Below are positions 4,043-63,945 of a stretch of DNA of 64,000 bases, piece by piece (position 1 is the first letter of the stretch; every line of letters begins with the position of its first letter). The notes under the pieces were generated by a model that had not been told where the DNA came from, ran no database searches, and worked only from the letters and a program-made list of their open reading frames with translations. The DNA lies in the NCBI GenBank assembly GCA_046263215.1, contig JBHELH010000318.1:778-64777 (forward strand). Reading direction: 5' to 3'. A program made the translations under genes and the position numbers. This DNA comes from Gemmatimonadaceae bacterium. Its GTDB lineage: Bacteria; Gemmatimonadota; Gemmatimonadetes; Gemmatimonadales; Gemmatimonadaceae.

Positions 4043-4804
4043 TCACCCCACGTGCTCGGGCAACCAGACAAGGACGTCCAGCCGCCGCGAGAATGAGAGC
4101 CGCGCCGGATCGGTCGTCAGCGTGAGTCCCGCCGCCGCGGCCATCGTGTCGCGCTCGATCTCGACCTCGGCGGGTTGCAACGGCCACGGGTGGTGGTGGA
4201 TCTCCGCGCGAAATACCCGCCGTGACGCGTCGAGTGCGTACAGGCAGTAGCGCTCGGTCAGCCAATGGTCGAGCGTGCCCGCCTTGCTGTGCGTCACGGC
4301 GCCCGTCGGCCGATACTGTGCGACGAACTCCGCCGCCGGCGCCGTGTGATGTGTGCGATGACTCCGATAGTGGATCGTCCCGTCGCGCGCCTCGCGTACG
4401 CTCATCGAGGCGCGGAAGTACGGCAGTCGGTACAGCGTGCGCGCACCGTACACCGCCAGGGGATTTCCTGCATCGAGGCTGAAAAAGTAGACGCCGGGCT
4501 TCCCGCCAACCGTGACGTACGTCCGCACGTTCAGCTCGGGAAAGGCCGACACCCATGGCAGCGGCGGTATCCCGCGCGGCCGCAGGTGGCTGAGGTAGAA
4601 CGGCGTCACCGACACCCACGCGACGCCCTTGTGTAAGTCGAGCGTCAGCTGCCGCGGCACGAGCGCGCGCAGTGCCTCGACCTCCGCCCGCCGGTGTATG
4701 AAGAGCAGGTTGCTCCACCGCTGCGCCATCACCCACGGCCCGCTCGGCAGCGGCCACGGACGATGCGCGACTTCGGCGAGCGGATGTGGGTCCAGCGTCG
4801 ACAT
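4043..4804 (-). CDS. DUF2071 (YqjF-like) family protein
   Basis: 253-aa ORF. The N-terminal W-M-Q-W-LLF-H pattern (PWVMAQRWSNLLFIHRR) and overall length match the DUF2071 family as I remember it. Confidence 0.8.
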   Translation of the reverse strand: MSTLDPHPLAEVAHRPWPLPSGPWVMAQRWSNLLFIHRRAEVEALRALVPRQLTLDLHKGVAWVSVTPFYLSHLRPRGIPPLPWVSAFPELNVRTYVTVGGKPGVYFFSLDAGNPLAVYGARTLYRLPYFRASMSVREARDGTIHYRSHRTHHTAPAAEFVAQYRPTGAVTHSKAGTLDHWLTERYCLYALDASRRVFRAEIHHHPWPLQPAEVEIERDTMAAAAGLTLTTDPARLSFSRRLDVLVWLPEHVG

Positions 4805-4824
4805 CGGACCGGTGAGGAGTTAGT

Positions 4825-5177
4825 CGGGAAGAACGTTACTCGGAAGACGGCGGAAGAGGGCGGAAGAGCGGGGAAGAGCGGGCACGCGGATGGCCGCGGA
4901 GGCAACCGCGATGGCCACGGATAACTCCGCGGGGGGTCCCGACTCCTCTCGCCGGCCCGAGAGAAGACCTTGGCTACACCCCCGGGACGCCACGGAGCGA
5001 GGGCGCTAGTCTCCTCGGCCAGTAGCGTCCCGAGCGTGTATAAGCAAAAGCATCGCCCGGGCTCGTGGCGGTATGCAGGCCCGACAGCCGAGGAGCCATC
5101 CGCGGCCATCGCCCTTCATCAATCCGCGCTCGTCCGCGTCCGCGCCCTTCCCCGGAACGACGTCGCTCTTCCGCTCT
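4825..5177. repeat. Composite nested-palindromic element, copy A (outer + middle modules)
   Basis: Tandem decamers (CGGAAGACGG CGGAAGAGGG CGGAAGAGCG GGGAAGAGCG), then CACGCGGATGGCCGCGGA and GAGAAGACCTTGGCTACACCCCCGGGACGC. Mirrored partners follow (AAGCATCGCCCGGGCTCGTGGCGG, ATCCGCGGCCATCGCCCTTCATCAATCCGCGCTCGTCCGCG, CGCTCTTCCGCTCTT). It shares these blocks with copies at 20161, 23330, 48672 and 62568. Confidence 0.9.
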
Positions 5178-7832
5178 TTAGCGACTCCTCCCCACCGCGC
5201 CCACGTTCCCCGCAACGTACAAATCGGACTCGACCCGGATGTAGCTGCACACGCCCCGCGTCGCGTCGGCGGAGATGCTCACGGCCATGCCGCACCCTTC
5301 GGGGAGCGGGGCGTAGAGCTCCGGGCGGCCCACTGGGCCGCGCATCCGCCACAGCTCGAGGTGCACCGACCCGTGGTCCGTGGCGAGCGCACGATTGCGT
5401 ACCAGGTAAATCCAGCCGTTGCGGTGCCAAGCGACTGGGAACGTCTCGCCGTGCGGACCGCGAATGCGCCGCCAGCGGCGCCCGTTGCCGAAGACGAGCC
5501 ACAATGTCGCCCGTTCGTCCCGCGGTCCGATCGTGCTCGCGAGGAGCTGCGTCCCATTCGGCGACGGCACGACGGAGAAATAGCCGGTGCCGACCGAGTC
5601 GGGCACGCGAAGGACCGACTCCGCCCGCCGTTGGAGGTTCACGAGCGCGATGCGTCGGAGGTCCTGGCCGTAGTAAGCGATGTGCCGTCCCGATGCCGAC
5701 CACTGCGCAGCGGCGGCTCCACCGCGCGGACCGACGGCGTCAGCGGCGGAGGTACCGGGACCGGGAAGCGAGCCGACGCGCTCCGCGACGCCGGTTCGCG
5801 CGTCAGCCATCACGAGCCGACGACTGACCGAGTCTTCGCGCGCGAACGTCAGGCGCGTCCCGTCGGGCGACCACGCCGGCGACTCCTCGCGCGCGCGGGA
5901 CGACGCGACGACCCTCGCCGAGCCGCCGCCGAACGCTACCGCGTGGATGTCCCGCTCCGCGCCACGCGTCGCCGTGTACGCGATCCACTGCCCGTCGGGC
6001 GATACGGCCGCGGCGGAGACGCGTACTGTTCCCTCGTCCAGCGCGCGCTCCTCGACGACACGCCGCGGCGCCGGGCCTCCGAGAACAAACGTCCGCGCCT
6101 GCGCGCCGGGACTGGTCTGCGTGTGGACGAGCCGGTCGACTCCAACGTCGAACGCGTCCGCCGCGAGTAGCGACGTCACGCGGGCCGCGCGGCCGACGGC
6201 GCTTCCGGACAGCAGGTCGATGCCGACACGCAGGAGATCGACAGCGCCGGCCGGCCCGGCGAGGGAGTACACAGCGTCCGAGCCCGCGGCCCAGCGAATC
6301 TTCCGCGCCCCCTCAGCCACTCGGCTCGGCGACCCGCCGGCGGCGGCGACGACCCAGAGCGCGTCGCCGGCGTCCGTGAACGCGAGCCAACGGCGGTCCG
6401 GCGACCAGGCCACCTCAATGACCGCACCGATCGAGTCGGGAAGCGTGATCCGACGCACCGGCTTACCGGACGCGAGGCTCACCATCTCGAGACGCCCGCG
6501 CTCGCGCGGCGCGCGAACGATGATCGTCGAGTCGGCGCCAGCGTCGAACGGTCGCGCCTCGTCGACCACCTTCCGGGCAGGACCGCCGCTCACAGATACG
6601 AGGTAGGTCGCCGCGGCTTCGGTGCTGTCGGGCGTCATCGTGACGACGAGCGCCTTACCGTCGCCGGTCCATCGGGCAGCCGAAATGCTGCGCGCGGACG
6701 GCACGAGGCGCACCGGCGCGCCGCCGTCGAGCCGCTGGACGATGAGCGCTCGGCCGCTGGCCACGTAAGCCACCGAACGCCCGTCCGGTGAGAGATCGGG
6801 GGACGTCGCCGTGCCCGTGAAGGTCAGCTGACGATGCGCGGCGGGAGCGAGCGTGGTCGTGCGGCGGCTCAGGACGACGCGTGAGCCCATCGCGACACCT
6901 GCCGCGACCATCAGGACGACCAACGACGCCCCGACCGCGACCCGCCAGCGTGAGCGCCTTCCGGCAGTTGTCGCCGCGGGATCGGCGGAGGGCAGGGCAG
7001 GCGTGGCCCTCCCACCGTGCAGCGCGGCCATGAACTCGCTCACCGTGTCGAACCGGTCCGCCGGCGCCTTCGACAGCGCGCGGTAGATCGCCCGCTCGAT
7101 GATGCGCGGTACGACGCGCACCGCGGTGAGCCGCGGTGGCGGCTCGTTCAGCACTCGCGCAATGAGTGCCGGCACGCTGGGCGCCGAGTACGGCGGCTCG
7201 CCGGCGAGCATCTCGTAGAGCACCGAGGCGAGGCTGTACTGGTCGCTCCGGCCGTCGACCGCGCGGCCACCGACGGCCTGCTCGGGGCTCATGTACGCCG
7301 GCGTTCCGAAGACCCCTGCCTCGACGGTCTGCTCCCGCGCCGCGCCGGCCAGGCCACGCGCGAGCCCGAAGTCGGCGACGAGCGGCTGACCGGCGTAGAG
7401 GAGGATCTTCTCCGGCTTGACGTCTCCGTGGACGATCCCGCGCCGGTGCGCGAACTCCAGAGCGGACGCCACGCCGCCGGCGATCCTGAGCGACTCGTCG
7501 ATGGGAAGCTGCCGCTCGCGCTCCAGCCGCTCACGTAGCGTCTCGCCTTCGGCGTGCGGCGTGACGAAGTAGACGACCCCGTCGGCGAAGCCGACGTCGA
7601 TCAGCGGCAGGATGTTCGGATGCTCCAGCCCGGCCGTCGCCTTGATGGCCTCGACCACTCGGTCGGTTCCGAGTGCCGCCGCAAGCTCAGGACGGAGCAC
7701 CTTGAGCGCGACCGCCTGCTCGGTCCGGAGGTCTCGCGCGAGGTAGACGATCGCGACGCCGGCGCGCCGCAGCTCGCGTTCGATGACGTAGCGACCGTTG
7801 AGAGCCGTTTGCTGGGACAGGGTCTGAGGCAC
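5178..7832 (-). CDS. Ser/Thr protein kinase fused to TolB-like PD40/WD40 beta-propeller repeats
   Basis: 884-aa ORF. Kinase motifs are VALKVL, IVHGDVKPEKILL, DFGLA and TPAYMSPEQ. A TM segment (VAVGASLVVLMVAAGVAMG) follows, then repeated SPDG-type PD40 motifs (SPDGRSVAY, WSPDRRWLAF, VSPDGQWIAY, WSPDGTRLTF). Confidence 0.95.
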   Translation of the reverse strand: MPQTLSQQTALNGRYVIERELRRAGVAIVYLARDLRTEQAVALKVLRPELAAALGTDRVVEAIKATAGLEHPNILPLIDVGFADGVVYFVTPHAEGETLRERLERERQLPIDESLRIAGGVASALEFAHRRGIVHGDVKPEKILLYAGQPLVADFGLARGLAGAAREQTVEAGVFGTPAYMSPEQAVGGRAVDGRSDQYSLASVLYEMLAGEPPYSAPSVPALIARVLNEPPPRLTAVRVVPRIIERAIYRALSKAPADRFDTVSEFMAALHGGRATPALPSADPAATTAGRRSRWRVAVGASLVVLMVAAGVAMGSRVVLSRRTTTLAPAAHRQLTFTGTATSPDLSPDGRSVAYVASGRALIVQRLDGGAPVRLVPSARSISAARWTGDGKALVVTMTPDSTEAAATYLVSVSGGPARKVVDEARPFDAGADSTIIVRAPRERGRLEMVSLASGKPVRRITLPDSIGAVIEVAWSPDRRWLAFTDAGDALWVVAAAGGSPSRVAEGARKIRWAAGSDAVYSLAGPAGAVDLLRVGIDLLSGSAVGRAARVTSLLAADAFDVGVDRLVHTQTSPGAQARTFVLGGPAPRRVVEERALDEGTVRVSAAAVSPDGQWIAYTATRGAERDIHAVAFGGGSARVVASSRAREESPAWSPDGTRLTFAREDSVSRRLVMADARTGVAERVGSLPGPGTSAADAVGPRGGAAAAQWSASGRHIAYYGQDLRRIALVNLQRRAESVLRVPDSVGTGYFSVVPSPNGTQLLASTIGPRDERATLWLVFGNGRRWRRIRGPHGETFPVAWHRNGWIYLVRNRALATDHGSVHLELWRMRGPVGRPELYAPLPEGCGMAVSISADATRGVCSYIRVESDLYVAGNVGAVGRSR

Positions 7833-18028: not shown

Positions 18029-18268
18029 TCGACTGCGCTCGACTGCGGACTGCGCACTGCGGACGAGGCGCCGCGAGCACCGGTTGTCGCACGTTCGGCG
18101 GCGTCGCCTGTCTGGAGGAATCTCCGGTGCCCCGGCGGCGAAGTCCAGTCCGGAGAGTGGTGCTCGGATAGCGTTTGCTATAGTATTCGCTACCACACTG
18201 CGTGCAGGCTGGCGACCGACCGAGGCCGTTAGCCCGCAGTCCGCAGTCCGCAGTCGGCCGTCCGCAGC
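18029..18268. repeat. GACTGCG-armed inverted repeat bracketing a divergent intergenic region
   Basis: The left arm is CGACTGCGCTCGACTGCGGACTGCGCACTGCGGAC (18029-18064). The right arm is CCGCAGTCCGCAGTCCGCAGTCGGCCGTCCGCAG (18233-18268). About 170 bp of unique sequence lies between them. Confidence 0.8.
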
Positions 18269-20159: not shown

Positions 20160-20160
20160 C

Positions 20161-20570
20161 GGGGGAAGGGCGACGGCGTTTCGAGTTGTTCGTTGGGGCA
20201 CGCGGACGAGCGCGGATCGATGAAGGGCGGTGGCCGCGGATCGCTCCTCTGCGCTACAAGACTCCACGCCGCGACGAGCCCGGACGATGCTTTGGCTACA
20301 CCGCCGGGAGGCTACTCTCGCCCCTTCTGTCACCCCGCAGGAGCGAGCGAAGCGAGCGAGTGCGGGGCACCCGCGCAGCGGGCCGGCGCGTCCCGGGGGT
20401 GTAGCAAAGGTCTTCTCGCGGGCCGGCGAACGGAGCCCGGAACGTCCGCGCGGCTATCCGCGCGTGTTCGCCCTTCGCCGATCCGCGGCCATCCGCGTGC
20501 GCGCTTTTCCCCGCTCTTCCGCGCTCTTCCGCGCTCTTCCGCGCTCTTCCCCGAAACGCCCCTCGCCCGT
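20161..20570. repeat. Composite nested-palindromic element, copy B (inverted relative to copy A)
   Basis: Begins immediately after the M28 stop. Contains GGCGTTTCG...CACGCGGACGAGCGCGGATCGATGAAGGGCGGTGGCCGCGGAT, one arm of the core hairpin (CTGTCACCCCGCAGGAGCGAGCGAAGCGAGCGAGTGCGGGG), GCGTCCCGGGGGTGTAGCAAAGGTCTTCTC, and four CGCTCTTCCG decamers. It ends in CCGAAACGCCCCTCGCCC. Confidence 0.9.
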
Positions 20571-20586
20571 CCGCTCTCCGAGCGAA

Positions 20587-21201
20587 CTACCTTGCGTAGA
20601 ACTCCACCACCGACGCCACGTCCACCACGAACGGGACGTCCGCGCGGAGGGGGGAGGCGATGACGCGGCCCGCGAAATCGTCCGACGGGTCCTTGGCGAG
20701 GTACTGCGGGAGCCGGACCTGCGGCCCGCGGGTCATCGAGTCGACGACGGCCGGGTTCTCGCGGGCGCGCGGAGCGACAGTGACCGTGTCGCCCGGCTTC
20801 GTCAGATACGACGGCCGGTCGACCTTCTTGCCATTGACGCGCACATGTCCGTGGACTACCAGCTGGCGCGCCGCGGGGATCGTCGGCGTGAGGCCGAGCC
20901 GGAAGACGACGTTGTCGAGGCGGCGCTCGAGGTAGGCGAGCAGCGCATCGCCGGTGACGCCAGGCTGGCGGAGAGCCGCCTGCAGGTACCGGCGCAGTTG
21001 CGTCTCGGTCACGCCGTAGTTGAAGCGGATCTTCTGCTTCTCTTCGAGCTGCTTGCGGTACGCGCTCTTCTTCCGGCGGCCGGACGCGTGCCCGTGCTGC
21101 CCGGGCGGCTGCGGCCGGCGCTCACCCGACTTGCGGGTCAGACCCGGCAGCTGCACCCCGAGACGACGAACGATCTTGAGACGAGGCCCGCGATGTGGCA
21201 C
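20587..21201 (-). CDS. rpsD: 30S ribosomal protein S4
   Basis: Start re-set to GTG 21201, preceded by AGGGGAGGGAG. The product, (M)PHRGPRLKIVRRLG...YRKQLEEKQKIRFNYGVTETQ...RLDNVVFRLGL...ARQLVVHGHVRVNGKKVDRPSY, is 204 aa, a canonical S4 length and sequence. Confidence 0.95.
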   Translation of the reverse strand: MPHRGPRLKIVRRLGVQLPGLTRKSGERRPQPPGQHGHASGRRKKSAYRKQLEEKQKIRFNYGVTETQLRRYLQAALRQPGVTGDALLAYLERRLDNVVFRLGLTPTIPAARQLVVHGHVRVNGKKVDRPSYLTKPGDTVTVAPRARENPAVVDSMTRGPQVRLPQYLAKDPSDDFAGRVIASPLRADVPFVVDVASVVEFYAR

Positions 21202-23093: not shown

Positions 23094-23327
23094 ATGCTAC
23101 GCTTCGCGGTGGTCGTCATGCCATTCCTCGCGGGCGTGACGGTTTTGAGCGGGCTCTATTTCATCTACGTGGGTGCGCGGACGGTCATCGCGGGCCGATA
23201 CGTCGCAATCGGCTTGGGCTTCATGGCGTTCGGGGGCGTCGGACTGATATTGGCGTATGCGTTGTGGAGCGTGCGACGGCAGATACTGGCGCGGGTGAGT
23301 CGGGTAGGTGGGGAGGGGCCGGGGTGA
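23094..23327 (+). CDS. Small membrane protein (2 TM)
   Basis: 77-aa ORF with two clear hydrophobic helices (FAVVVMPFLAGVTVLSGLYFIYV and VAIGLGFMAFGGVGLILAYALW). It lies 18 nt after the preceding gene. Confidence 0.5.
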   Translation: MLRFAVVVMPFLAGVTVLSGLYFIYVGARTVIAGRYVAIGLGFMAFGGVGLILAYALWSVRRQILARVSRVGGEGPG

Positions 23328-23329
23328 GG

Positions 23330-23812
23330 TCGGAGGGGACGGCGGAAGGGCATGGCGTTGTTCGTTGGGCACGGACGAGCGCGGATCGGCGAGGGGCGAA
23401 AGCGCGGATGGCTCCGCGGCCGTTCGGGGTCCCCCTCGCCGGGCCTTGAGAAGACCTCGCTACCGCCGCTCGGGACGCTCCGACCCCGCCGTGTTGTCAT
23501 CCCGCACGAGCGCAGCGAGTGTCGGGGTCTACTACGCGCGGGGCGTGGCCACCTACGGAGCAGTGCAAGTAGATCCCGACACTCGCTCGCTTCGCTCGCT
23601 CCTGCGGGATGACAAGAGAGGGCGAGAGAAGCCTCCCGGGGGGTGTAGCCACAGCATCCTCCGAGCTGTGGCCGTTGGGCATCTCGTAATGCCGAGGGAC
23701 TATCCACGCGTTTTCGTCTTTCGCCGATCCGCGCTCGTCCGCGCGCCGAGCGATCAAGCCCAACGATTACCTGGAAACGCCTTCGCCCTTCCGCCTTCCT
23801 CGCCCGACCCAG
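23330..23812. repeat. Composite nested-palindromic element, copy C (full, with complete core hairpin)
   Basis: Ends are GGCGGAAGGGCATGGCGTTGTTCGTTGGGCACGGACGAGCGCGGATCGGCGA ... TCGCCGATCCGCGCTCGTCCGCGCGCC...GGAAACGCCTTCGCCCTTCCGCC. The middle module is GAGAAGACCTCGCTACCGCC.../GGGGGGTGTAGCC. The core hairpin is at 23496-23613. The right end overlaps the last codons of the permease gene. Confidence 0.9.
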
Positions 23813-25161: not shown

Positions 25162-25291
25162 CGGCGCCGCAGATTCTACGTCCGACCCAGTCCGGCGACA
25201 AGCAAACAGCGACGCGCGCGCGGGACCATCTGGCGCCGGACGCCACGGCGGGACATCGTGGAGCGCCGCTTTCAGCCACGGAGACCGACAC

Positions 25292-30300: not shown

Positions 30301-30395
30301 GAGGGGTGGAGGGTGGAGGGTGGAGCGAGCTTCGGTCAGGAAGGCCTCGGCATGAGGGGGACGGCCTTCTGCACCCTCAACCCTCCACCTTCCAC
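30301..30395. repeat. GGTGGAG-armed hairpin spanning the His-kinase stop and the regulator start region
   Basis: The plus-strand left arm is GAGGGGTGGAGGGTGGAGGGTGGAG (30301-30325) and the right arm is CACCCTCAACCCTCCACCTTCCAC (30372-30395). An inner stem is GAAGGCC/GGCCTTC. Confidence 0.8.
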
Positions 30396-37784: not shown

Positions 37785-38077
37785 CGCTATCCGCTATCGG
37801 TCGCGCTGCGCGCGACGCTATCAGCTATGCGTTATCAGCTATCACCAGTTCGGATGGCCCGGCGCTTCGCGCCGGGCGTTTCATTTGAATGTGCTCAGCA
37901 TAACCACGTAGCTCCGAGCGGAGTCACAGGCCGCGCGCACTCGCGGCGCAGGCCAACTTCGTTGTGCGCAGGATCACCAAATGCAGCAAAGCCCGGCCGC
38001 GCATGCGCGGCCGGGCACACCAAAGTACCGATAGCTGATAGCTGATAGCGGATAGCGTCGCGCGCCGAGCGCGCGAC
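37785..38077. repeat. GCTATCR-armed ~290-bp inverted repeat enclosing two facing terminator hairpins
   Basis: The left arm is CGCTATCCGCTATCGGTCGCGCTGCGCGCGACGCTATCAGCTATGCGTTATCAGCTATCACC. The right arm is CGATAGCTGATAGCTGATAGCGGATAGCGTCGCGCGCCGAGCGCGCGAC. Confidence 0.85.
37981..38016 (-). terminator. Rho-independent terminator of the amidohydrolase gene
   Basis: Minus strand reads GCCCGGCCGCGCATGCGCGGCCGGGCTTTGCTGCATTTGG, ~105 nt after the stop at 38121. A mirror hairpin with a plus-strand T-run (GGCCCGGCGCTTCGCGCCGGGCGTTTCATTTG, 37856-37888) has no plus-strand gene upstream. Confidence 0.65.
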
Positions 38078-47483: not shown

Positions 47484-48671
47484 ATGACGGCCCGACTCTA
47501 TTACACGGATTCCTATCTGACGACGTTCGACGCCCAGGTCGTCGAGCGCGGCGAGGCCGGGCGCCGCGTCTACCTCGATCGCACGGCGTTCTATCCGACG
47601 TCGGGCGGACAGCCGGCCGACGCCGGGACGATCGACGGCATCCAGGTCGCCGACGTGGTCGATGAGGGTGAGCGTATCGCCCACATGCTCAGCGAGCCGC
47701 TCGCCGACACCACCATCGGTGTGTCAGGAGCGATCGACTGGTCGCGCCGCTTCGACCACATGCAGCAGCACACTGGGCAGCACCTGCTGTCGGCCGTGAT
47801 CGCCGAGATGCTCGGCCACCAGACCGTCAGCGTGCACTTCGGCGCCCACGCGTCGTCCCTCGACCTGGACGTCGATTCGGTCGGGCGGGAGCATGTCGTC
47901 GCGGTCGAGAGACGAGCGAACGAGCTCGTCGTCGCCAACCGGCTGGTCACGATCTCGTTCGAGGAGGCGGCGTCGGTGGACGGGCTTCGCAGAGCGTCAG
48001 CGCGAGAAGGGACGCTCCGCGTCGTCGCGATCGAGGGTGTCGACCGCAGCGCGTGCGGCGGAACTCACGTGCGCGCGACGGGCGAGATCGGTCCGATCCT
48101 CGTCCGGAAGATCGATCGGGTGAAGAAACAGGTGCGGCTGGAGTTCGTGTGCGGGCTGAGAGCGGTGCGCCGCGCGCGCGCCGACTTCGAGCTACTGTCG
48201 CGGCTCGGGCAGGGGCTCTCGGCGTCGATCGACGAGATTCCGGCGCTCGTCGAGTCGCAGGCCGATCGGCTGCGTGCGGCCGACGGGCAGCGTCGGCGGC
48301 TGGAGGCCGAGCTGCATGCGTATCGCGCACGGCTCCTGTACGAGGCTGCCGAGCGCGACGAGTCCGGCGTGCGCCGCGCGGTGCAACGCCGCGAGACGGG
48401 ATCGCTCGAGGCGCTTCGCGGGCTCGCGCAGGCGTACTGCGTTCTCCCCAAGGCAGTGCTCATCGGTGCCGTCGACGATCCGCCGGCGGTTCTCCTCGCC
48501 GCATCGGAGGATTCCGGGATCGACGCGGGACGCGTGCTCAAGGCGGCCTTAGCGAGCGTCGGCGGCCGGGGCGGCGGATCGCCGCGCATGGCGCAGGGAA
48601 GCGTGCCGGGCGCGGAAGTCATCCCGAAAGTGATCGAGGCAGTGGTGGAGGCGGTGCGTGCGGCGAGGTAG
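47484..48671 (+). CDS. alaX: AlaX-L type alanyl-tRNA editing protein (AlaRS second additional domain + DHHA1)
   Basis: 395-aa ORF with N-terminus LYYTDSYLTTFDAQV, zinc/editing motifs HMQQHTGQHLLSA and CGGTHV, and a C-terminal GGGSPRMAQG DHHA1-like motif. Confidence 0.9.
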   Translation: MTARLYYTDSYLTTFDAQVVERGEAGRRVYLDRTAFYPTSGGQPADAGTIDGIQVADVVDEGERIAHMLSEPLADTTIGVSGAIDWSRRFDHMQQHTGQHLLSAVIAEMLGHQTVSVHFGAHASSLDLDVDSVGREHVVAVERRANELVVANRLVTISFEEAASVDGLRRASAREGTLRVVAIEGVDRSACGGTHVRATGEIGPILVRKIDRVKKQVRLEFVCGLRAVRRARADFELLSRLGQGLSASIDEIPALVESQADRLRAADGQRRRLEAELHAYRARLLYEAAERDESGVRRAVQRRETGSLEALRGLAQAYCVLPKAVLIGAVDDPPAVLLAASEDSGIDAGRVLKAALASVGGRGGGSPRMAQGSVPGAEVIPKVIEAVVEAVRAAR

Positions 48672-48840
48672 GAGGGCGGAAGGGCGAGGGCGTTGCGGGG
48701 AAGAGCGGGAAGAACGCGCACGCGGATGGCCGCGGAGGAAACTGCGATGGCCGCCGAGAGCCCCGCGGGGTGCTCCGGGCTCCGCGTGCACGCTCTTCCC
48801 CGCTCTTTCCCGAAACGCACAACGCCGTCGCTGTTCCGCC
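48672..48840. repeat. Composite palindromic element, copy D (minimal, outer module only)
   Basis: GGAGGGCGGAAGGGCGAGGGCGTTGCGGGGAAGAGCGGGAAGAACGCGCACGCGGATGGCCGCGGAGG...CCGGGCTCCGCGTGCACGCTCTTCCCCGCTCTTTCCCGAAACGCACAACGCCGTCGCTGTTCCGCCC. It starts immediately after the alaX stop. Confidence 0.9.
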
Positions 48841-49133
48841 CTTTAATAAGGTATGCGGCGCGCTAGTAACCGAACGCCGCCGTGCGAGAACGGTTCAGGG
48901 CGGCGTTGCACAAGAATGGTTCGCGCGGCGCGCTCGACTTGATCGGCGGTCATGTGCGCGACGTTGCGGCGGCGGACATTCGCGAATCCCACTTCCTCTA
49001 AATGACAACGTTGTTAGCTTGAGAGCCCTCGTCGGACTTCGCGCGCTCGCACGCTTTCGCGACGACGCCTCGTGAGTCTCGAGCCCCTCCTCACAGGTCG
49101 ACACGCTCACACGCTCACACGCTCCGCCCCTCC

Positions 49134-50876: not shown

Positions 50877-50880
50877 CAGG

Positions 50881-50935
50881 GCTTGTGAGCTTGTGAGCTT
50901 GTGAGGGCCCGGCTCCTCAAAAGCTCATAAGCTCG
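50881..50935. repeat. GCTTGTGA-armed hairpin after the amidohydrolase gene
   Basis: GCTTGTGA x3, GGGCCCGGCTC, then CTCAAAAG CTCATAAG CTCGC (8-nt units mirrored). Confidence 0.75.
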
Positions 50936-51013
50936 CCGCAGTAGGTGTCGCCGGAGCAGGCCGCGGGGGAGCGGGAGATCGACGGGCGGGGCGACATCTA
51001 CTCGCTGTTGGCT

Positions 51014-54220: not shown

Positions 54221-54267
54221 GCGGCGTCGGTCGCCTAAGCGCGTGTGGCGGAGAACAGCAGTCGGAG

Positions 54268-54373
54268 ACGACTGCGGACTGCGGAGTGCGGACTAGAACC
54301 CCCGGGATGCCCCTGTCACCGGCTCGGAGCGTCCCAGGGATTTGTGTCCGCAGTTCGCAGTCCGCAATCGGAC
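54268..54373. repeat. GACTGCG-armed hairpin with conserved core, copy 1
   Basis: GACGACTGCGGACTGCGGAGTGCGGACTAGAACCCCCGGGATGCCCCT...GAGCGTCCCAGGG...GTCCGCAGTTCGCAGTCCGCAATCGGAC. The core and arms are homologous to 61031-61160. Confidence 0.85.
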
Positions 54374-54384
54374 GCGGTCGTCCC

Positions 54385-58841: not shown

Positions 58842-58845
58842 CGGG

Positions 58846-58980
58846 GCTTGAGAGTTTGTCGGCTTGTGGGCTTGTGGGCTTTTGAGCGGGCGTTGTTAGG
58901 AAGCTCCTCGGCATAAGAAAGGGTCCCCAGTCGGGGACCCTTTCCTCTCAAGCTCTCAAGCCCACAAGCTCACAAGCTTG
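58846..58980. repeat. GCTTGTGG/GCTTGAGA-armed hairpin enclosing a bidirectional terminator
   Basis: The left arm is five 8-nt units (GCTTGAGA GTTTGTCG GCTTGTGG GCTTGTGG GCTTTTGA). The inner hairpin is AAAGGGTCCCCAGTCGGGGACCCTTT (58918-58943). The right arm is CTCAAGCT CTCAAGCC CACAAGCT CACAAGCT. Confidence 0.85.
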
Positions 58981-59989: not shown

Positions 59990-61036
59990 ATGATCAAGAG
60001 ACGTAACATTCTGGCATTGCTGCTGGCCGGCGGTCTGGTCAGTTGCGGGGAGACGCCCGGCATTCGGGACGTTTCGCCGAGCTCGGCCGTGGACATGCTG
60101 GCCGGCGTCGTCGAGAACGTCGCGAGCGCCGTGACGGGGAAGGGTCACCTCGGCTTCGACACCGGGATCTATCCGGGCGACGAGACGATGCGTGTGTGGC
60201 GCGCGACCGCACCGTACAAGTGGGTCGGCTATTACCTCCCGGCTCCCTGCCACAAGGACGACTCCTGGGCCGGCAAGCGTGCCCAGCTCACCGACATGGG
60301 CTGGGGGCTCGCGGTCATCTACGTCGGTCAGCAAACGTGGTCGGGCGTCCCCGCCAAGCACTCGACGGTCTACCGCACGACGTACAAGACCAAGACGGTC
60401 ACCAAGTACGTCAGCAAGCGCGTGAAGACCTACGTCAAGAAGAATGGCAAGCGCGTGCCGAAGTACGTGACGAAGCGTGTGCCGACCCGGGTCAAGCAGC
60501 GGGTTCCAGTCCGCACGCCGGTGCGCGTCGCGTTCGAGGAGTCGAAGCACGGACTCATGAGCTGCCAGCGGAACCTCGTCACGCAGTCGCGTGGCGCGCT
60601 CGAGGCGGCTGACGCGATCGCGAAGACCGCCGGCGAGGGCTTCCCGCGCGGCACGGTGATCTTCCTCGACATCGAGCGGATGGATGTGACGCCGAAGGCG
60701 ATGCGTGACTACTACAAGGAGTGGGTCGCGCGCGTGCTCGCGGACGGACGCTTCGTGCCGGGGATCTACGCGCACACGCACAACGCCTCGCTCATCTACC
60801 GGGACGTGAAGGCGGTCTACGCGGGTGCTGGTCGAACCGAGGAGCCGCCGTTCTGGATCGCCGGCGGGCGCAACTTCGCGCCGACGAAGGCGCCGAAGGA
60901 GATCGGGCACGCGTTCGCGGCCGTGTGGCAGGGCGTGCTCGACGTCGTCCAGGAGTGGAACGGCCACAAGGTCAAGATCGATGTCAACGTCGCTGAGACG
61001 CCGTCGCCGTCGCTGCACCGGGTCGAGGCGGACTAG
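59990..61036 (+). CDS. DUF1906 (Rv2525c-like glycoside-hydrolase-like) lipoprotein with Lys/Val/Thr-rich insertion
   Basis: 348-aa ORF with lipobox LLLAGGLVSC and DUF1906 opening GFDTGIYPGDETMRVWRATAPYKWVGYYL. It is a paralog of the next gene apart from a ~65-aa basic insert (aa ~122-186). Confidence 0.85.
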   Translation: MIKRRNILALLLAGGLVSCGETPGIRDVSPSSAVDMLAGVVENVASAVTGKGHLGFDTGIYPGDETMRVWRATAPYKWVGYYLPAPCHKDDSWAGKRAQLTDMGWGLAVIYVGQQTWSGVPAKHSTVYRTTYKTKTVTKYVSKRVKTYVKKNGKRVPKYVTKRVPTRVKQRVPVRTPVRVAFEESKHGLMSCQRNLVTQSRGALEAADAIAKTAGEGFPRGTVIFLDIERMDVTPKAMRDYYKEWVARVLADGRFVPGIYAHTHNASLIYRDVKAVYAGAGRTEEPPFWIAGGRNFAPTKAPKEIGHAFAAVWQGVLDVVQEWNGHKVKIDVNVAETPSPSLHRVEAD

Positions 61037-61160
61037 ACCAGACTAGACCGACTGCGGACTGCGGACTGCGGACTGCGGACTAGAACCCTCGGGATGCTCC
61101 TAAAGCGCTAGAAGCGTCCCGAGGCCGTGAGTCCGCAGTTCGCAATCCGCAGTCGTTTTT
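61031..61160 (+). terminator. GACTGCG-armed hairpin with conserved core, copy 2, ending in T5 (likely terminator between the paralogs)
   Basis: GACTAGACCAGACTAGACC(GACTGCG)x4 GACTAGAACCCTCGGGATGCTCCT...GAAGCGTCCCGAGG...GTCCGCAGTTCGCAATCCGCAGTCGTTTTT. Confidence 0.75.
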
Positions 61161-61189
61161 CGGTACGGTTCTTCCGTCGACTGCGGCGC

Positions 61190-62116
61190 GTGACTAATCC
61201 ACTACGCTTCGCATTGCTGCTCGTGCTCGCCTCGGGTTGCGCGCGGGTCGCGACGACACGCCCTCGGCCGGTAACGCAGAGCTTCGCCGGTTTCGACGTC
61301 GCCATTTATCCGGGCGAGGCCGCGATGCGCGCGTGGCTGCGGCCGAACTCGCCCTACTACTGGGTCGGCTACTACCTCCCCGCGCCCTGCCACCGCGACA
61401 CGTCGTGGGCCGGTAAGCGCGCGACCCTCGCCGGGATGGGTTGGGGACTCGCGGTGCTCTACGTCGGTCAGCAGGCGTGGGAAGGCGTCCCCGAACGGGT
61501 CGCGGCGGCAGACACCGCGCGTCCGGCGGGAGACACGGCGGGCGCCGCGGCGGGCGTGCAACGCAACATCGTGTGTTCGCGCACGCTGCTCACCGCGGCG
61601 CAGGGATTAGCCGAGGCGAACGACGCCATCACCAAAGCATCCGCCGACGGCTTCCCGCGCGGCACGCACATCTTCCTCGACATCGAGCGGATGACGACGA
61701 TCCCGCAGGCGATGCGGGACTACTACCGCGCGTGGGTGGCGCGCGTGCTGGCCGACGGGCGTTTCCGTCCCGCGATCTACGCGCACCAGCGCAACGCGGC
61801 CGAAATTTACGGGGACGTTCGCGCGACATTCGACGCGGCCGGCGTCCGCGACGAGCCGTCATTTTGGGTGTCGAGCCCCGCAGCGGCCACCCTGACCAGC
61901 TCGCCGTCCGAGGTCGGCTTCCGTTTCGCGCGTGTTTGGCAGCACGCGCTCGATGCGTCGCAGACGTTCAACGGCGTCACGTTGCGGCGAATCGACGCGA
62001 ACGTCTCCGACAGCCCGTCGCCGTCGGCGGCAGGGCCTGTCATCGCGAACTCAGGGCAGAGCGCGGCACGCGGGCCCGCGGGAGCGCCGCCTGGGCTGGT
62101 GACGGTCTCGCCGTGA
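61190..62116 (+). CDS. DUF1906 (Rv2525c-like) lipoprotein, paralog 2
   Basis: Start re-set to GVG 61190 read as GTG (VTNPLRFALLLVLASGC lipobox); the track start 61127 lies inside the repeat arm. Long blocks are collinear with the upstream paralog (WVGYYLPAPCH.D.SWAGKRA.L..MGWGLAV.YVGQQ.W.GVP; GFPRGT.IFLDIERM...P.AMRDYY..WVARVLADGRF.P.IYAH). Confidence 0.85.
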   Translation: MTNPLRFALLLVLASGCARVATTRPRPVTQSFAGFDVAIYPGEAAMRAWLRPNSPYYWVGYYLPAPCHRDTSWAGKRATLAGMGWGLAVLYVGQQAWEGVPERVAAADTARPAGDTAGAAAGVQRNIVCSRTLLTAAQGLAEANDAITKASADGFPRGTHIFLDIERMTTIPQAMRDYYRAWVARVLADGRFRPAIYAHQRNAAEIYGDVRATFDAAGVRDEPSFWVSSPAAATLTSSPSEVGFRFARVWQHALDASQTFNGVTLRRIDANVSDSPSPSAAGPVIANSGQSAARGPAGAPPGLVTVSP

Positions 62117-62153: not shown

Positions 62154-62564
62154 ATGCGACACGGATTGATGTACCAGGGTGGGTTCGAGCAGAACTTCGC
62201 GACGCTCGAGCCTGGCGCGCGCACCTTCCGCACGTCGGACGGCGCGGAGCAGTCGATTCCCGACTGGCCGGAGACAGTCGACGGTGTACGCTTCGGCTAC
62301 ATGGAGCGTCGCGGTCGGAAGTTCCTGCTCGTGCGTCTCCAATTCGATGAGCACGACGTCGTCCTCCGCACGCCGGTGGCGCTCGACCGGATGCGGCACA
62401 TGGGCAACCAGCGCTTCGCCCCGCGGCCGATCCTGCTGACCGACGCCAACGCGTCAGCGCTGCTCGACGACGTGATCGAGTGCAACCCCGAGCAGAGCAC
62501 CGAGATCGCACTGTTGATCAACCGCGTGAACCAGGTGAGGCGTGGTCGGGTAGTGTCGTCGTAG
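62154..62564 (+). CDS. Hypothetical cytoplasmic protein
   Basis: 136-aa ORF with good third-position GC, 37 nt after the paralog stop. I recognised no family. Confidence 0.6.
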   Translation: MRHGLMYQGGFEQNFATLEPGARTFRTSDGAEQSIPDWPETVDGVRFGYMERRGRKFLLVRLQFDEHDVVLRTPVALDRMRHMGNQRFAPRPILLTDANASALLDDVIECNPEQSTEIALLINRVNQVRRGRVVSS

Positions 62565-62567
62565 GGC

Positions 62568-63032
62568 TCGGGCTGCGAGGGCGGAGGGGCGAGGGCGTTT
62601 CGGGGAAACAGCGTGGCCGCGGATGACGCGGATGACGCGGAAACGCGCTGATCGCTCCGTGGGACGGTCCGGCCTCCGCTCGCTGGCCCCTGGAAGACCT
62701 TTGCTACACCCCCGGGACGCCACGAGGCACCCTCCCTGTCATCCCGCAGGAGCGAGCGAAGCGAGCGAGTGTCGGGATCTACTTTACGTGCCCTGTGGGT
62801 AGCCACGCTGCAGTGGAAGTAGATCCCGACACTCGCGGCCGCATGCGGCGGCGCTCCTGCGGGATGACAGGGACGGGGCGAGGGTGGCTCCCCGCGGGTG
62901 TAGCCGAGGCATCGTCCGGGCTCGTGGCGGCGCGGAGCCTGGAGCGCAGAGGGGCGATCCGCGCTCTTCCGCGTCATCCGCGTCATCCGCGGCCGCGCCG
63001 TTCGCGAACGACGCCCTCGCCCTTCCGCCGTC
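62568..63032. repeat. Composite nested-palindromic element, copy E (full; best-preserved core hairpin)
   Basis: GCGAGGGCGGAGGGGCGAGGGCGTTTCGGGG...GGCCGCGGATGACGCGGATGACGCGG...GGAAGACCTTTGCTACACCCCCGGGACGC...core hairpin 62736-62870...GGGTGTAGCCGAGGCATCGTCCGGGCTCGTGGCGG...CCGCGTCATCCGCGTCATCCGCGGCC...CGAACGACGCCCTCGCCCTTCCGCCGTCGC. Confidence 0.9.
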
Positions 63033-63038
63033 GCTTCC

Positions 63039-63572
63039 CTACCGCTTCGGCAGATCGGGACAGTTCTCTCGCCGCCGGGTGTCGGTCAATCCGAAGATGC
63101 GCCAGCCTGCGGGGCGGCGAACCATCTGGAAGGCATCGACTCCGCAGTGGTTCTTTCGGTCGCCGATGTAGAAGGTGTAATCGACCCACGCGACCGCGTA
63201 GGGACCGTCGATGAGGACGCGCTCGTTGGCGATTCGCTCGTCATAGACTTCCGCGTGCGGCGTGCCGATCGCGCGCAAGAACATGCCGAGCGAGTCGTCG
63301 GAGACGGTGAGTGCGCCCTGACGGACGCCGACGCTCTGGAGGCGCGCCCCGGGCTCGAAAAGCGCCCGCGCCGCGCTGCTGTCCTGCGCGCGCATCGCGT
63401 CGAACAGACGCTGGACGACGTCGACCACCTCGCGCTCGCGAGCACCAAGTGTGGCGGTCTGCGACCGAGAGCTCGCGGCAACGGTTGCCGATGACGAGGC
63501 GCTACTGCGCGGCGCCGGCACCGTACAGGCGGCGGCGAGCAAAGCTGTGGCGGCGAGAGGTGCGCAACGCAT
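63039..63572 (-). CDS. NTF2-like (SnoaL/DUF4440-type) lipoprotein
   Basis: Start re-set to ATG 63572 (MRCAPLAATALLAAAC lipobox). NTF2-like core: VVDVVQRLFDAMRAQD...ERVLIDGPYAVAWVDYTFYIG...GVDAFQMVRRPAGWRIFGLTD. Confidence 0.75.
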   Translation of the reverse strand: MRCAPLAATALLAAACTVPAPRSSASSSATVAASSRSQTATLGAREREVVDVVQRLFDAMRAQDSSAARALFEPGARLQSVGVRQGALTVSDDSLGMFLRAIGTPHAEVYDERIANERVLIDGPYAVAWVDYTFYIGDRKNHCGVDAFQMVRRPAGWRIFGLTDTRRRENCPDLPKR

Positions 63573-63666
63573 TAGCTGAGGCGTGAAGGCGTCGGAGAGA
63601 ACGTGACGGCGACGCCCCGTGCTGTCCAGCGTCCGTCGCGGGGGCTTACAGTTTCCGAACCGCGGC

Positions 63667-63945
63667 TCACCAGTCGCCGCGCTCCTCGCCACGCCGGTAC
63701 GCGCGCAGCAGCGTGAAGACGATTCCGGTATTGCCGACGATCACCCCGGAGTAGAACGCGAGCCTCGCGTAGCGGTCGTCGGTCGTATGCATCGACCAGC
63801 CGAGCAGGTAGAGACCGATCAGCATCCACATCACGCACAGCGCGCCCGTGCGGACCATGTCGCGTCGTCGGACGCGCTCGGCCTCCAGCTCCGCGGCCTC
63901 TCGGGCCCGGGCCATCTCCTCGAGCAACTCTTTGCGAAGCGGCAT
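63667..63945 (-). CDS. Small membrane protein (2 TM); 5' limit uncertain near window edge
   Basis: ATG 63945 gives MPLRKELLEEMARAREAAELEAERVRRRDMVRTGALCVMWMLIGLYLLGW...FYSGVIVGNTGIVFTLL. The track ORF starts at TTG 63996 and the frame is open to the window end. Confidence 0.5.
   Translation of the reverse strand: MPLRKELLEEMARAREAAELEAERVRRRDMVRTGALCVMWMLIGLYLLGWSMHTTDDRYARLAFYSGVIVGNTGIVFTLLRAYRRGEERGDW

What the first reader, a model, noticed from the sequence alone, without database searches (positions are those of the whole stretch)
62568..63032. Five-copy family of nested-palindromic composite elements sitting exactly at gene ends
Five intergenic loci (4825-5177, 20161-20570, 23330-23812, 48672-48840, 62568-63032) share long near-identical sequence blocks, and each locus is itself a long imperfect palindrome. 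Reading inward, the shared blocks are as follows. (i) Outermost inverted ends, approximately GGCGGAAGGGCGAGGGCGTT(T)CG ... CGAAACGCCCTCGCCCTTCCGCC. (ii) Sub-terminal tandem 9-10-mers mirrored on the other arm (CGGAAGAGCG x3-4; in this copy GCGGATGAC x2). (iii) CACGCGGATGGCCGCGGA or the related CACGCGGACGAGCGCGGATCG. (iv) GAGAAGACCTTTGCTACACCCCCGGGACGC, paired with GGGTGTAGCC..GCATCGTCCGGGCTCGTGGCGG. (v) A central hairpin with ~45-nt arms. No copy holds a credible gene. The track ORFs that cross them (4729..5109, 20193..20663, 23165..23707, 62297..62986) translate similarly only because the DNA is repeated. Each copy fills the space next to a stop codon. Copy A abuts the kinase stop, B starts 2 nt after the M28 stop, C lies between a small gene stop and the permease stop, D starts right after the alaX stop, and E lies between two convergent stops. 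I cannot match this architecture to any described MITE, REP/BIME or Rfam family from memory. It could be a non-autonomous mobile element that targets terminator hairpins, a family of complex terminators or mRNA stabilisers, or a structured RNA.
Basis: seen in the sequence. Interest (0 to 1): 0.8.

Follow-up and report, generated by a model that had tools for sequence, protein, structure and literature searches.

The report
Nested hairpin repeats at gene ends
Five gene-end spacers of an uncultured Gemmatimonadaceae genome hold old copies of one long DNA-hairpin repeat, and three copies carry at their tip a long-loop variant of the hairpin motif recognised by the recently described Ssn single-strand DNA nucleases.

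Summary
Five intergenic loci share the same blocks in the same order, and each is a long imperfect palindrome (DNA fold z-scores: E -17.6, D -8.4, A -2.9). "Near-identical" is overstated: blocks are 80-97% identical, whole copies only 54-75%.

The innermost layer of B, C and E is not novel in kind. It is a long-loop variant of the Ssn-related motif (SRM/NTS hairpin; Chenal et al. 2025). Its 24-mer occurs in 36 metagenome contigs and 5 Gemmatimonadales MAGs with unrelated flanks. In related contigs the same ends enclose or flank a ~100-aa GIY-YIG gene. That gene matches the NTS-flanked Neisseria ssnA locus (tblastn E 1e-14).

The outer shell was found only in this lineage. It is old: elements sit right after the AlaX stop in relatives with 75-77% AlaX identity. 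It gave no hit in Rfam, the genome collection or the protein database. It has no U-tract terminators, and its arm mismatches show no bias towards either RNA strand.

Best reading: a BIME/NIME-like mosaic of DNA hairpin repeats living at gene 3' ends, reshaped by slippage, central deletion and SRM insertion at the hairpin tip. This is a new variant of a known kind. How the shell spreads, and whether it has an RNA 3'-end role, remain untested.

The parts
4825..5192 (.). Copy A. Shell only, no SRM: decamer array, CACGCGGATGGCCGCGGA block and asymmetric core. Lies between the kinase stop (5178-5180, - strand) and the start of the DUF2071 gene (4804).
   Evidence: Fold z -2.85.
20160..20575 (.). 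Copy B. The shell is in the opposite orientation to A, C, D and E. A single SRM unit sits at the centre. Lies between the convergent M28 peptidase (stop 20157-20159) and rpsD (stop 20587-20589).
20328..20369 (+). Single SRM-like hairpin unit in B: TGTCACCCCGCAGGAGCGAGCGAAGCGAGCGAGTGCGGGGCA.
20505..20553 (.). Decamer array (CGCTCTTCCG, about 5 copies), present only on the right arm of B.
   Evidence: (family D4).
23330..23812 (.). Copy C. Shell plus an SRM doublet at the centre. The right outer arm overlaps the 3' end of the permease ORF (23767-25341, - strand).
23495..23614 (-). SRM doublet in C. It is REPIN-like: two inverted SRM units around a spacer. The long-loop unit is on the right arm.
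48672..48842 (.). Copy D. Short form holding the outer layers only. Starts directly after the AlaX stop (48669-48671). Longer or partial elements occupy the orthologous site in relatives L061 and L064.
   Evidence: Fold z -8.4.
62560..63049 (.). Copy E (the reported finding, 62568-63032). The most complete copy, an almost continuous 490-nt hairpin. Its arms overlap the stops of ORF 62154-62564 (+) and ORF 63039-63692 (-).
   Evidence: Fold z -17.6.
62737..62869 (+). SRM doublet in E: TGTCATCCCGCAGGAGCGAGCGAAGCGAGCGAGTGTCGGGATCTAC - spacer - GTAGATCCCGACACTCGC..GCTCCTGCGGGATGACA.
62618..62641 (.). 9-mer array GCGGATGAC on the left arm of E. It is mirrored at 62957-62991, where it reads CGTCATCCG, resembling the SRM/NTS 5' head.
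62693..62724 (+). Asymmetric core block GAAGACCTTTGCTACACCCCCGGGACGCCACG. The same block occurs in A at 4963-4994, in B at 20388-20417 on the - strand, and in degenerate form in C.
   Evidence: (family D13).
62884..62935 (+). Partner core block GGTGGCTCCCCGCGGGTGTAGCC..GCATCGTCCGGGCTCGTGGCGG. It is arm-specific and conserved in A, B, E and L001.
   Evidence: (family D5).

Best explanation
The five loci are diverged copies of one lineage-specific family of intergenic 'foldback' mosaic repeats. They act at the DNA level and are comparable to enterobacterial BIMEs and neisserial NIME/dRS3-NTS arrays.

Every copy has the same shell. From the outside in: GC-rich inverted ends, a length-variable array of 9-10-nt repeats, GCGGAT-rich blocks, and an asymmetric core (GAAGACCTTTGCTACACCCCCGGGACGC on one arm, GGGTGTAGCC..CGTCCGGGCTCGTGGCGG on the other).

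In B, C and E the tip of this hairpin is occupied by a separate element, an Ssn-related motif (SRM). This is the GTCAT-headed hairpin that Ssn-family GIY-YIG nucleases bind and cut as single-stranded DNA. Here it is a variant with a 21-nt loop. B holds one unit. C and E hold REPIN-like inverted doublets.

Shown: the SRM doublet exists on its own in many Gemmatimonadales contigs with unrelated flanks and no target-site duplication. Versions ~490-600 bp long carry an ssnA-like gene between the same ends. The spacers of gene-less doublets retain sequence found inside the gene-carrying units.

Inferred: the doublets are non-autonomous derivatives copied in trans through a single-strand hairpin intermediate, with a preference for the apex of existing palindromes.

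Shown: the shell is old and long-lived at gene 3' ends. Copies are 54-75% identical, and the site after the AlaX stop is also occupied in relatives L061 and L064 (75-77% AlaX identity).

Inferred: the shell is reshaped locally by repeat slippage, by central deletion (D looks like a deleted form of the longer L061 element), and by arm-to-arm correction. It is confined to the space up to the stop codons by selection on the coding sequence. A secondary role as a U-tract-less transcript 3'-end hairpin is possible but untested.
For: Family and palindrome:
- establish the shared blocks and order. Searches give the fold z-scores.

Inner layer is an independent element:
- Its 24-mer occurs in 36 metagenome contigs and in 18 stretches from 5 Gemmatimonadaceae/Gemmatimonadales MAGs, the only hits among 185,579 species genomes.
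- Its boundaries are sharp at TGTCA...TGACA and the flanks are unrelated.
- The right arm, which the search did not select for, is also highly conserved.
- No direct duplication is seen at 37 flank pairs.

Link to Ssn:
- A GIY-YIG gene lies inside the element in L016 and L024, and between two doublets in L056. Pfam PF01541 scores E 7.5e-16.
- tblastn against the N. gonorrhoeae locus gives E 1e-14 and 42% identity. That locus is flanked by canonical NTS repeats such as CCGTCATTCCCGCACAGGCGGGAATCTAGA.
- The properties of the Ssn family are taken from PMC11893778.
- Internal sequence of the gene-carrying units matches doublet spacers (scores 20-24 against a control maximum of 11-13).

Apex preference:
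- All 5 SRM ends in the window lie in B, C and E (0.42 expected by chance), at the same point of the shell.
- A different outer family with CGGCTCT heptad arms, in L002, also carries SRM doublets at its centre in 2 of 3 copies.

Age of the shell:
- A copy sits at a non-orthologous site in L001.
- Elements occupy the orthologous site right after the AlaX stop in L061 and L064.

DNA level rather than RNA level:
- No Rfam hit.
- G.T versus A.C arm mismatches are 42 vs 37.
- No hairpin plus T-run at any copy.
Against: - No ssnA-like gene lies in the 64-kb window, and the rest of this MAG could not be read, so a cognate nuclease in this genome is assumed.
- The published SRM search pattern does not match the unit (0 hits).
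- The SRM sits at the same shell position in B, C and E. This could be one ancestral insertion inherited by copying of the whole composite rather than three targeted insertions. The 'orientation' differences between copies could be arm-to-arm conversion.
- Only about 8 of 37 doublets elsewhere are nested in a larger palindrome, so the apex preference is not strong genome-wide.
- Nothing shows how the shell itself disperses.
- Occupancy of the same gene-end site across deep divergence is as well explained by a selected function as by tolerance.
- Metagenome and MAG copies were collected with an exact left-arm 24-mer, so conservation of the left arm is partly by construction.
Confidence: 0.6

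Rival explanations
1. Unit MITE. The whole composite, shell plus SRM, is one non-autonomous transposable element that moves as a unit. The SRM was acquired once. A and D are internal-deletion derivatives.
For: - Block order is the same in all copies and in L001.
- The SRM sits at the same shell position in B, C and E.
- D is a centrally shortened version of the longer element at the orthologous site in L061.
Against: - Copies are only 54-75% identical, and the AlaX site is occupied across relatives with 75-77% AlaX identity, so there has been no recent burst.
- No TSD or defined ends are visible.
- The SRM demonstrably exists and spreads without the shell.
- SRM doublets also sit in an unrelated heptad-armed shell.
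- SRM-bearing copies are not closer to one another in shell sequence than to A.
Confidence: 0.2
2. Functional gene-end hairpins. The elements are selected cis-elements, either U-tract-less terminators or 3'-end stabilisers or insulators between convergent genes. Their sequences are homogenised by gene conversion. The SRM is an opportunistic lodger. This reading does not exclude the best explanation.
For: - Every copy starts at or within a few nt of a stop codon.
- A strong hairpin occupies the orthologous site after the Amidohydro_2 stop in the window and in L001, with unrelated sequence.
- The element after the AlaX stop is retained in several lineages.
- Canonical hairpin plus T-run terminators are no commoner than in shuffles, so another 3'-end signal may be used.
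Against: - Sizes of 170-490 nt far exceed what termination needs.
- There are no T-runs.
- Both orientations occur relative to the upstream gene.
- Arm mismatches show no bias towards either RNA strand.
- Copy A has decayed (z -2.85).
- No expression data are available.
Confidence: 0.25
3. A structured non-coding RNA family.
For: Strongly negative folding z-scores and conserved arm-specific blocks.
Against: - No Rfam family at the gathering or E-value thresholds.
- The RNAalifold covariation term is unfavourable (+5.86).
- The SRM stems are almost invariant, with one covarying pair only.
- Symmetric palindromes fold equally on both strands.
- There is no wobble bias.
Confidence: 0.03
4. Assembly artefact or chance resemblance.
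For: MAG contigs can carry chimeric inverted repeats, and contig L064 ends inside an element.
Against: - There are five loci in one contig, plus homologous elements in independent assemblies from NCBI, ENA, JGI and Logan.
- Motif counts are far above shuffles.
Confidence: 0.01

Closest known systems
Ssn-related motifs (SRM), i.e. the Neisseria NTS/dRS3 repeats, with SsnA GIY-YIG ssDNA nucleases (Chenal et al. 2025, PMC11893778)
   Same: - The inner unit has the GTCAT head, a CCCGC/GCGGG-type stem and an ATCTA tail, like the NTS. Compare GTCATTCCCGCACAGGCGGGAATCTAGA in L065.
- It is multi-copy and intergenic.
- In related contigs it flanks or encloses a ~100-aa single-domain GIY-YIG gene that matches the NTS-flanked Neisseria locus (E 1e-14).
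   Different: - The loop is 21 nt (16-27 nt in variants) instead of 0-5 nt, so the published SRM pattern misses it.
- The usual form is an inverted doublet of 120-135 nt with a spacer.
- The host phylum is Gemmatimonadota, which the paper's main text does not mention.
- It is lodged at the apex of a larger palindrome.
- Cleavage by a cognate Ssn is untested.
REP / BIME / REPIN with RAYT (Y1 transposase) systems of Proteobacteria
   Same: - Short imperfect palindromes sit at gene 3' ends and combine into ordered mosaics.
- Inverted doublets form long hairpins (REPIN-like).
- The associated nuclease gene is flanked by its own repeats.
- There is no target-site duplication.
   Different: - The associated enzyme is a GIY-YIG nuclease, not an HUH/Y1 transposase. 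No RAYT was looked for or seen.
- The GTAG head is not conserved; GTAG, GCAG, CTAG and GTGG all occur.
- Composites are much longer (170-490 nt) and form a single nested palindrome rather than an alternating array.
Neisserial intergenic mosaic elements (NIMEs: RS units bounded by dRS3). Recalled from Parkhill et al. 2000, not re-read here.
   Same: SRM-type hairpins are combined with other lineage-specific repeat blocks in intergenic mosaics.
   Different: NIMEs are arrays in direct order, not onion-like palindromes. There is no sequence similarity in the non-SRM parts.
MITEs such as Correia/NEMIS, and nested MITEs
   Same: Small non-coding elements with terminal inverted repeats. A gene-carrying parent and deletion derivatives exist. 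Elements are nested within one another.
   Different: No TSD. The parent encodes a GIY-YIG nuclease, not a DDE transposase. Shell copies are old and occupy the same site across deep divergence.
Eukaryotic Foldback (FB) transposons (analogy only, from general knowledge)
   Same: Long inverted arms are built from tandem short repeats of variable number.
   Different: Eukaryotic and kilobase-sized, with a different (or no) coding capacity. No homology is implied.

Membership tests
SRM/NTS hairpin repeats (Ssn system) | Oriented hairpin with a conserved 5' GTCAT head, a GC-rich inverted repeat and a 3' ATCYR-type tail | tested here: met
   The unit reads TGTCAT-CCCGCA-[loop]-TGTCGGG-ATCTAC in B, C, E and >40 other loci. 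It is directly comparable to the NTS copies around the N. gonorrhoeae ssnA locus.
SRM/NTS hairpin repeats (Ssn system) | Matches the published degenerate SRM search pattern HGTCWYN(0-2)YYVSBRHN(0-5)WNVSBRGN(0-2)RNCYNB | tested here: not met
   0 matches in the window on both strands (Markov control mean 0.9). The loop is 21 nt, against the 0-5 nt the pattern allows.
SRM/NTS hairpin repeats (Ssn system) | Repeats flank a single-domain ~100-aa GIY-YIG (ssnA) gene on both sides | tested here: met
   Met in related contigs: L016 and L024 have the gene between the two halves of the element, and L056/L057 have the gene between two full doublets. It is not seen in the window itself, which holds no GIY-YIG gene.
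SRM/NTS hairpin repeats (Ssn system) | The associated protein belongs to the Ssn clade (cd10448; the paper's working criterion is tblastn E<1e-10 to Nm SsnA) | tested here: inconclusive
   The reverse search gives tblastn E 1e-14 at 42% identity over 95% of the protein, to the NTS-flanked N. gonorrhoeae locus. CDD assignment could not be run, NCBIfam gave no hit, and the closest PDB entries are only UPF0213 proteins at E~1e-3.
SRM/NTS hairpin repeats (Ssn system) | Cut next to the hairpin by the cognate Ssn, as ssDNA only and on one strand only | not testable with these tools
   Needs biochemistry.
REP/BIME/REPIN-RAYT | Associated RAYT (IS200/IS605-like Y1 transposase) gene flanked by the repeats | not tested
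   No profile search for Y1_Tnp was run on the loci. The gene actually found between the repeats is GIY-YIG.
REP/BIME/REPIN-RAYT | Conserved GTAG tetranucleotide at the foot of the REP hairpin | tested here: not met
   GTAG is the commonest form at the inner stem (GTAGATCCC), but it varies (GCAG, CTAG, GTGG, ATAG) and covaries with the opposite arm.
REP/BIME/REPIN-RAYT | Ordered mosaics of palindromic units in intergenic regions at gene 3' ends | tested here: met
Classical (DDE-type) MITE | Terminal inverted repeats plus a target-site duplication | tested here: not met
   TIRs are present. No direct duplication was found at 37 SRM-doublet flank pairs; several flanks simply continue the palindrome, for example ccc|ggg. 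No TSD is visible at the shell ends.
Intrinsic (Rho-independent) terminator | GC-rich hairpin followed directly by a T/U run | tested here: not met
   None of the five copies is called. Counts in the two 20-kb regions are at or below shuffle expectation: 2 against 7.3, and 10 against 5.8.
Any Rfam RNA family | Match to a curated covariance model | tested here: not met
   0 hits at gathering threshold in the window and in 7 related loci. In E-value mode only junk appears, at E 0.3-8.

The most novel reading that the evidence does not exclude
Gemmatimonadaceae carry a working 'SRM-ssnA-SRM' mobile unit of ~0.5-0.6 kb. Its gene-less inverted doublets (120-135 nt, no TSD) are copied in trans by the Ssn ssDNA nuclease, preferentially into the single-stranded tips of existing palindromes. 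The mirrored 7-10-nt repeat arms seen around these hairpins at many gene ends are a by-product of that hairpin-directed cutting and repair. This would be the first evidence that Ssn nucleases act as REP/RAYT-like mobilising enzymes that build self-extending foldback elements. Chenal et al. only raised this as a hypothesis.
Probability: 0.3. Interest if true: 0.7.

Novelty: new variant of a known kind. Interest (0 to 1): 0.5.

Why it matters
Ssn nucleases were described in 2025 as site-specific ssDNA cutters with flanking hairpin repeats. Whether the repeat-gene-repeat unit is mobile was left open.

These Gemmatimonadaceae loci supply what that question needs. There are gene-carrying units and their gene-less doublet derivatives. 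Many insertion sites have sharp boundaries and no duplication. The doublets repeatedly lodge at hairpin tips. A motif variant exists that the published search pattern misses, so SRM abundance is probably underestimated.

The shell shows that long palindromes of 170-490 nt can persist at gene ends across deep divergence in a 70% G+C genome. That bears on how such genomes end transcripts without U-tracts, and on why MAG assemblies break at these sites.

The finding is mainly of interest to people working on bacterial repeats and mobile DNA. It is not a new category.

Tried and rejected
- Rfam (gathering on the window and 7 loci; E-value mode on E): nothing.
- Genome-collection scan for the core 22-mer CTTKGCTACACCCCCGGGACGC: 0 hits. 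The shell is absent from 185,579 species representatives at exact-match level.
- Viral-contig scans for two shell blocks: 0 hits, and one chance hit inside a coding region.
- Searching the translated spurious ORF of copy A to fish out other shell copies: 0 hits.
- Looking up the window's own AlaX protein to reach the rest of the MAG: not on record. JGI contigs of the closest relatives had no DNA available.
- Covariation: RNAalifold on the six shell copies gave a poor consensus and an unfavourable covariation term. The SRM alignment is almost invariant, with one covarying pair. Neither supports nor refutes a structure. One count of structure pairs attempt failed on string length.
- Inner/outer orientation differences as proof of independent insertion: rejected as decisive. 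The doublet is itself palindromic, and the 'orientation' only reflects which arm holds the long loop.
- My early note that L001 lacks an element after AlaX: revised. The three-way alignment suggests a degraded right-arm remnant there.
- GIY-YIG with MITE/REP as a new association: literature searches with those terms found nothing. A later search then found the Ssn paper, so the association is already known.
Full report
SOURCE. The window is 70% G+C. Its AlaX-like protein (47484-48671) is 100% identical to an NCBI protein annotated 'MAG: DHHA1 domain-containing protein [Gemmatimonadaceae bacterium]' on a 65,533-bp contig. The window therefore comes from an uncultured Gemmatimonadaceae genome. 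That MAG is not in the gene-position index, so only these 64 kb of it could be read.

THE OBSERVATION. All five loci exist as described. A blastn of the five against the whole window finds many mutual matches and nothing elsewhere at E<1e-3. Examples are A vs B(-) at 154 nt/82% and 98 nt/84%, B vs E(-) at 113 nt/84%, D vs A at 73 nt/86%, and B vs E at 36 nt/97%. A MAFFT alignment of A(+), B(-), C(+), D(+), E(+) and a copy from a relative (L001) shows one block order, with nested length differences at the centre. Each locus is an imperfect palindrome. Folded as ssDNA, E gives -202.7 kcal/mol (z -17.6), D gives z -8.4 and A gives z -2.85. Pfam confirms the flanking genes and the 'at the stop codon' placement. 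Whole copies within the window are 54-75% identical. Arm complementarity is 61-83%. The 10-mer array is on one arm only in B and is absent in C and E.

THE INNERMOST LAYER IS A SEPARATE ELEMENT. The 29-mer CCCGCAGGAGCGAGCGAAGCGAGCGAGTG is exact in B, C and E. A 24-mer from it occurs in 36 JGI metagenome contigs. It also occurs in 18 stretches from five Gemmatimonadaceae/Gemmatimonadales MAGs, which are the only hits among 185,579 species genomes. In these loci the element has sharp ends: TGTCATCCCGCAGGAGCGAGCGAAGCGAGCGAGTGTCGGGATCTAC - variable spacer of ~35-45 nt - GTAGATCCCGACACTCGC - 2-16 nt - GCTCCTGCGGGATGACA. The sequence outside TGTCA...TGACA is unrelated from locus to locus. The right arm was not used for the search, and it is nearly invariant too. 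Single 45-nt units occur (L039, L040). Tandem arrays of units occur (L013, L020). Clusters of doublets occur (five in L011, three in L035). No direct target duplication is seen at 37 flank pairs.

LINK TO A NUCLEASE GENE, AND TO THE LITERATURE. In L016 and L024 the two halves of the element enclose ~400-500 bp carrying a ~100-aa ORF on the opposite strand. L019/L031 show the left half plus the same gene up to the contig end. The ORFs are GIY-YIG domains (PF01541, E 7.5e-16 to 2e-11). In L056/L057 a homologous gene sits between two complete doublets. In a Thermoanaerobaculia MAG (L058) and in another MAG (L059), homologues are flanked by shorter GTCATCCTGAGCGCAGCGAAGGATC-type hairpins. The first 20-40 nt inside the gene-carrying units recur in the spacers of gene-less doublets. 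One example is ...CTACCTTCGTGCCCATTATAG in L019 against L018. Scores are 20-24 against a shuffled maximum of 11-13. This fits doublets being internal-deletion derivatives, or the gene having entered a doublet.

Literature searches for GIY-YIG with MITE/REP terms found nothing. A later search then found Chenal et al. 2025 (PMC11893778). That paper describes Ssn proteins as ~94-aa single-domain GIY-YIG nucleases (cd10448) that bind and cut ssDNA next to a hairpin repeat. The repeat is the NTS, CGTCATTCCCGCGMAVGCGGGAATCYRG, or more generally an 'SRM'. It is present in hundreds of mostly intergenic copies and flanks the ssnA gene. The authors note that NTS-ssnA-NTS looks like an IS and compare it with REP/RAYT/BIME, but they do not show mobility.

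The Gemmatimonadaceae protein hits the N. gonorrhoeae chromosome at E 1e-14 with 42% identity over 95% of its length. That locus is flanked by canonical NTS copies such as CCGTCATTCCCGCACAGGCGGGAATCTAGA. Placed beside TGTCAT-CCCGCA-[21 nt]-TGTCGGG-ATCTAC, the correspondence of head, stem and tail is plain. The published degenerate SRM pattern allows only a 0-5-nt loop and finds nothing in the window. The inner layer is therefore a long-loop SRM variant in a phylum the paper's main text does not mention.

SRM AT THE HAIRPIN TIP. In the window, SRM ends occur only in B, C and E (5 matches against 0.42 expected). They always sit a few nt from the conserved GGGCGAGRG block of the shell. A has the 'empty' version of that junction. 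In another Gemmatimonadaceae population (L002, L003, L021, L029, L030) a different shell has arms of CGGCTCT/GCCGAGA heptads. That shell also carries SRM doublets at its centre in some copies and not in others. This favours repeated lodging at palindrome tips. Even so, only about 8 of 37 doublets overall are nested in a larger palindrome. The three window cases could also descend from one insertion.

THE SHELL. The core 22-mer has no exact match in the genome collection. Shell blocks are absent from viral contigs apart from one chance hit. The translated shell ORF has no protein homologue. Shell homologues were found only in close relatives reached through AlaX synteny. L001 (72% AlaX identity) has an A-like copy at a different site, after a kinase gene (9385-9650; z -6.1). 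L061 (75%) has a ~300-nt A-like element starting right after the AlaX stop, which is the orthologous site of D (z -3.2). L064 (77%) has module-i-like sequence directly after the AlaX stop, and the contig ends 55 nt later. At that site L001 keeps what looks like a degraded right arm. So the shell is old. D is best read as a centrally shortened form. The decamer array between the outer end and the GCACGCGGA block is a lineage- and arm-specific expansion: it is absent in L061, C and the left arm of B, has two copies on each arm in D, and five on one arm in B.

DNA OR RNA. There is no Rfam hit. No canonical terminator lies at any copy. Arm mismatches are 42 G.T against 37 A.C, so neither strand is favoured as an RNA. 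Covariation analyses were uninformative. Hairpins do occupy the same gene-end positions with unrelated sequences in the window and in L001, after the Amidohydro_2 stop. A 3'-end function for gene-end hairpins in general therefore cannot be excluded.

WIDER PATTERN. Hairpins whose two arms are mirrored arrays of 7-10-nt repeats are common here. The window has 9 mirrored against 2 direct tandem-repeat pairs within 600 nt. The other Gemmatimonadaceae loci listed for having at least one mirrored pair have 16 against 2. Several centres share a YCGGGAYGC...GCGTCCCGR core. Tandem short repeats also adjoin ssnA/SRM loci in other phyla (L040, L058, L059). I could not test whether Ssn-type cutting drives this.

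VERDICT. The elements are a BIME/NIME-like mosaic of DNA hairpin repeats. Their inner layer belongs, as a long-loop variant, to the recently described SRM/Ssn system. Their shell is a lineage-specific, long-lived foldback repeat. The rating is new variant of a known kind, interest 0.5. The most novel reading left open is Ssn-driven copying of SRM doublets into hairpin tips, which builds and extends the foldbacks. I put that at about 0.3.

Noticed in passing
window 18018-18267, 54247-54378, 61027-61155 (partial at 10806-10853): A second foldback family. Its arms are mirrored GACTGCG/CCGCAGT heptads around a core CCCGGGATGC...GCGTCCCRGGG, which resembles the core of the five-copy family. All copies are intergenic.
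   Followed up: partly
window 30304-30399, 37797-38076, 50881-50934, 58844-58978: Further single-locus hairpins whose arms are mirrored arrays of 7-8-nt repeats (GGGTGGA, GCTATCA, GCTTGTGA, GGGCTTGT). 37797-38076 encloses two GC hairpins with T/A runs that look like a bidirectional terminator. Overall the window has 9 mirrored against 2 direct repeat pairs.
   Followed up: partly
window 50877-50944 and L001 8373-8450: The orthologous site after the Amidohydro_2 stop holds a strong hairpin in both genomes, but the sequences are unrelated. The position is conserved and the sequence is not.
   Followed up: partly
window 23767-23812: The last ~15 codons of the amino-acid permease ORF (the Pfam domain ends at residue 492 of 524) overlap the outer arm of copy C. 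The repeat may supply the C-terminal tail and the stop codon.
   Followed up: no
window 22390-22410: A mini hairpin, ACGTCATCCTCGGGATGGCGT followed by a T-rich tail, with a GTCATCC head. It could be a short-loop SRM-like site. It was picked up only by the terminator scan.
   Followed up: no
window 59990-61036 and 61127-62116: Two adjacent paralogous genes. The second has an Rv2525c-like glycoside-hydrolase domain. They share 76-77% DNA identity over 155-207 nt blocks (families D1 and D2) and are separated by a family-2 foldback at 61027-61155.
   Followed up: no
L011 (five doublets in 7.2 kb), L035 3456-3919 (three in a row), L013 and L020 (tandem single units): SRM units and doublets form dense local clusters and head-to-tail arrays in some soil Gemmatimonadaceae contigs.
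   Followed up: partly
L064 4555-4609; GIY-YIG hit list: The contig ends 55 nt after the AlaX stop, inside the repeat. Most ssnA-like proteins lie on contigs under 3 kb. These repeats appear to break short-read assemblies.
   Followed up: no
L065 (NZ_CP119142.1 1881113-1882603); also H7: Two 2.17-Mb N. gonorrhoeae chromosomes are filed as plasmids in PLSDB. In this strain the ssnA reading frame looks interrupted: the only intact ORF is 71 aa from an internal TTG, while tblastn similarity begins upstream of it.
   Followed up: partly
L059 about 1700-1960; L058 2320-2480; L040 about 120-200: Tandem short repeats lie next to ssnA/SRM loci in other phyla. Examples are GGCGAAGGGC arrays that resemble the shell's outer end, ~36-nt repeats and CCGCCTGA octamers.
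   Followed up: no
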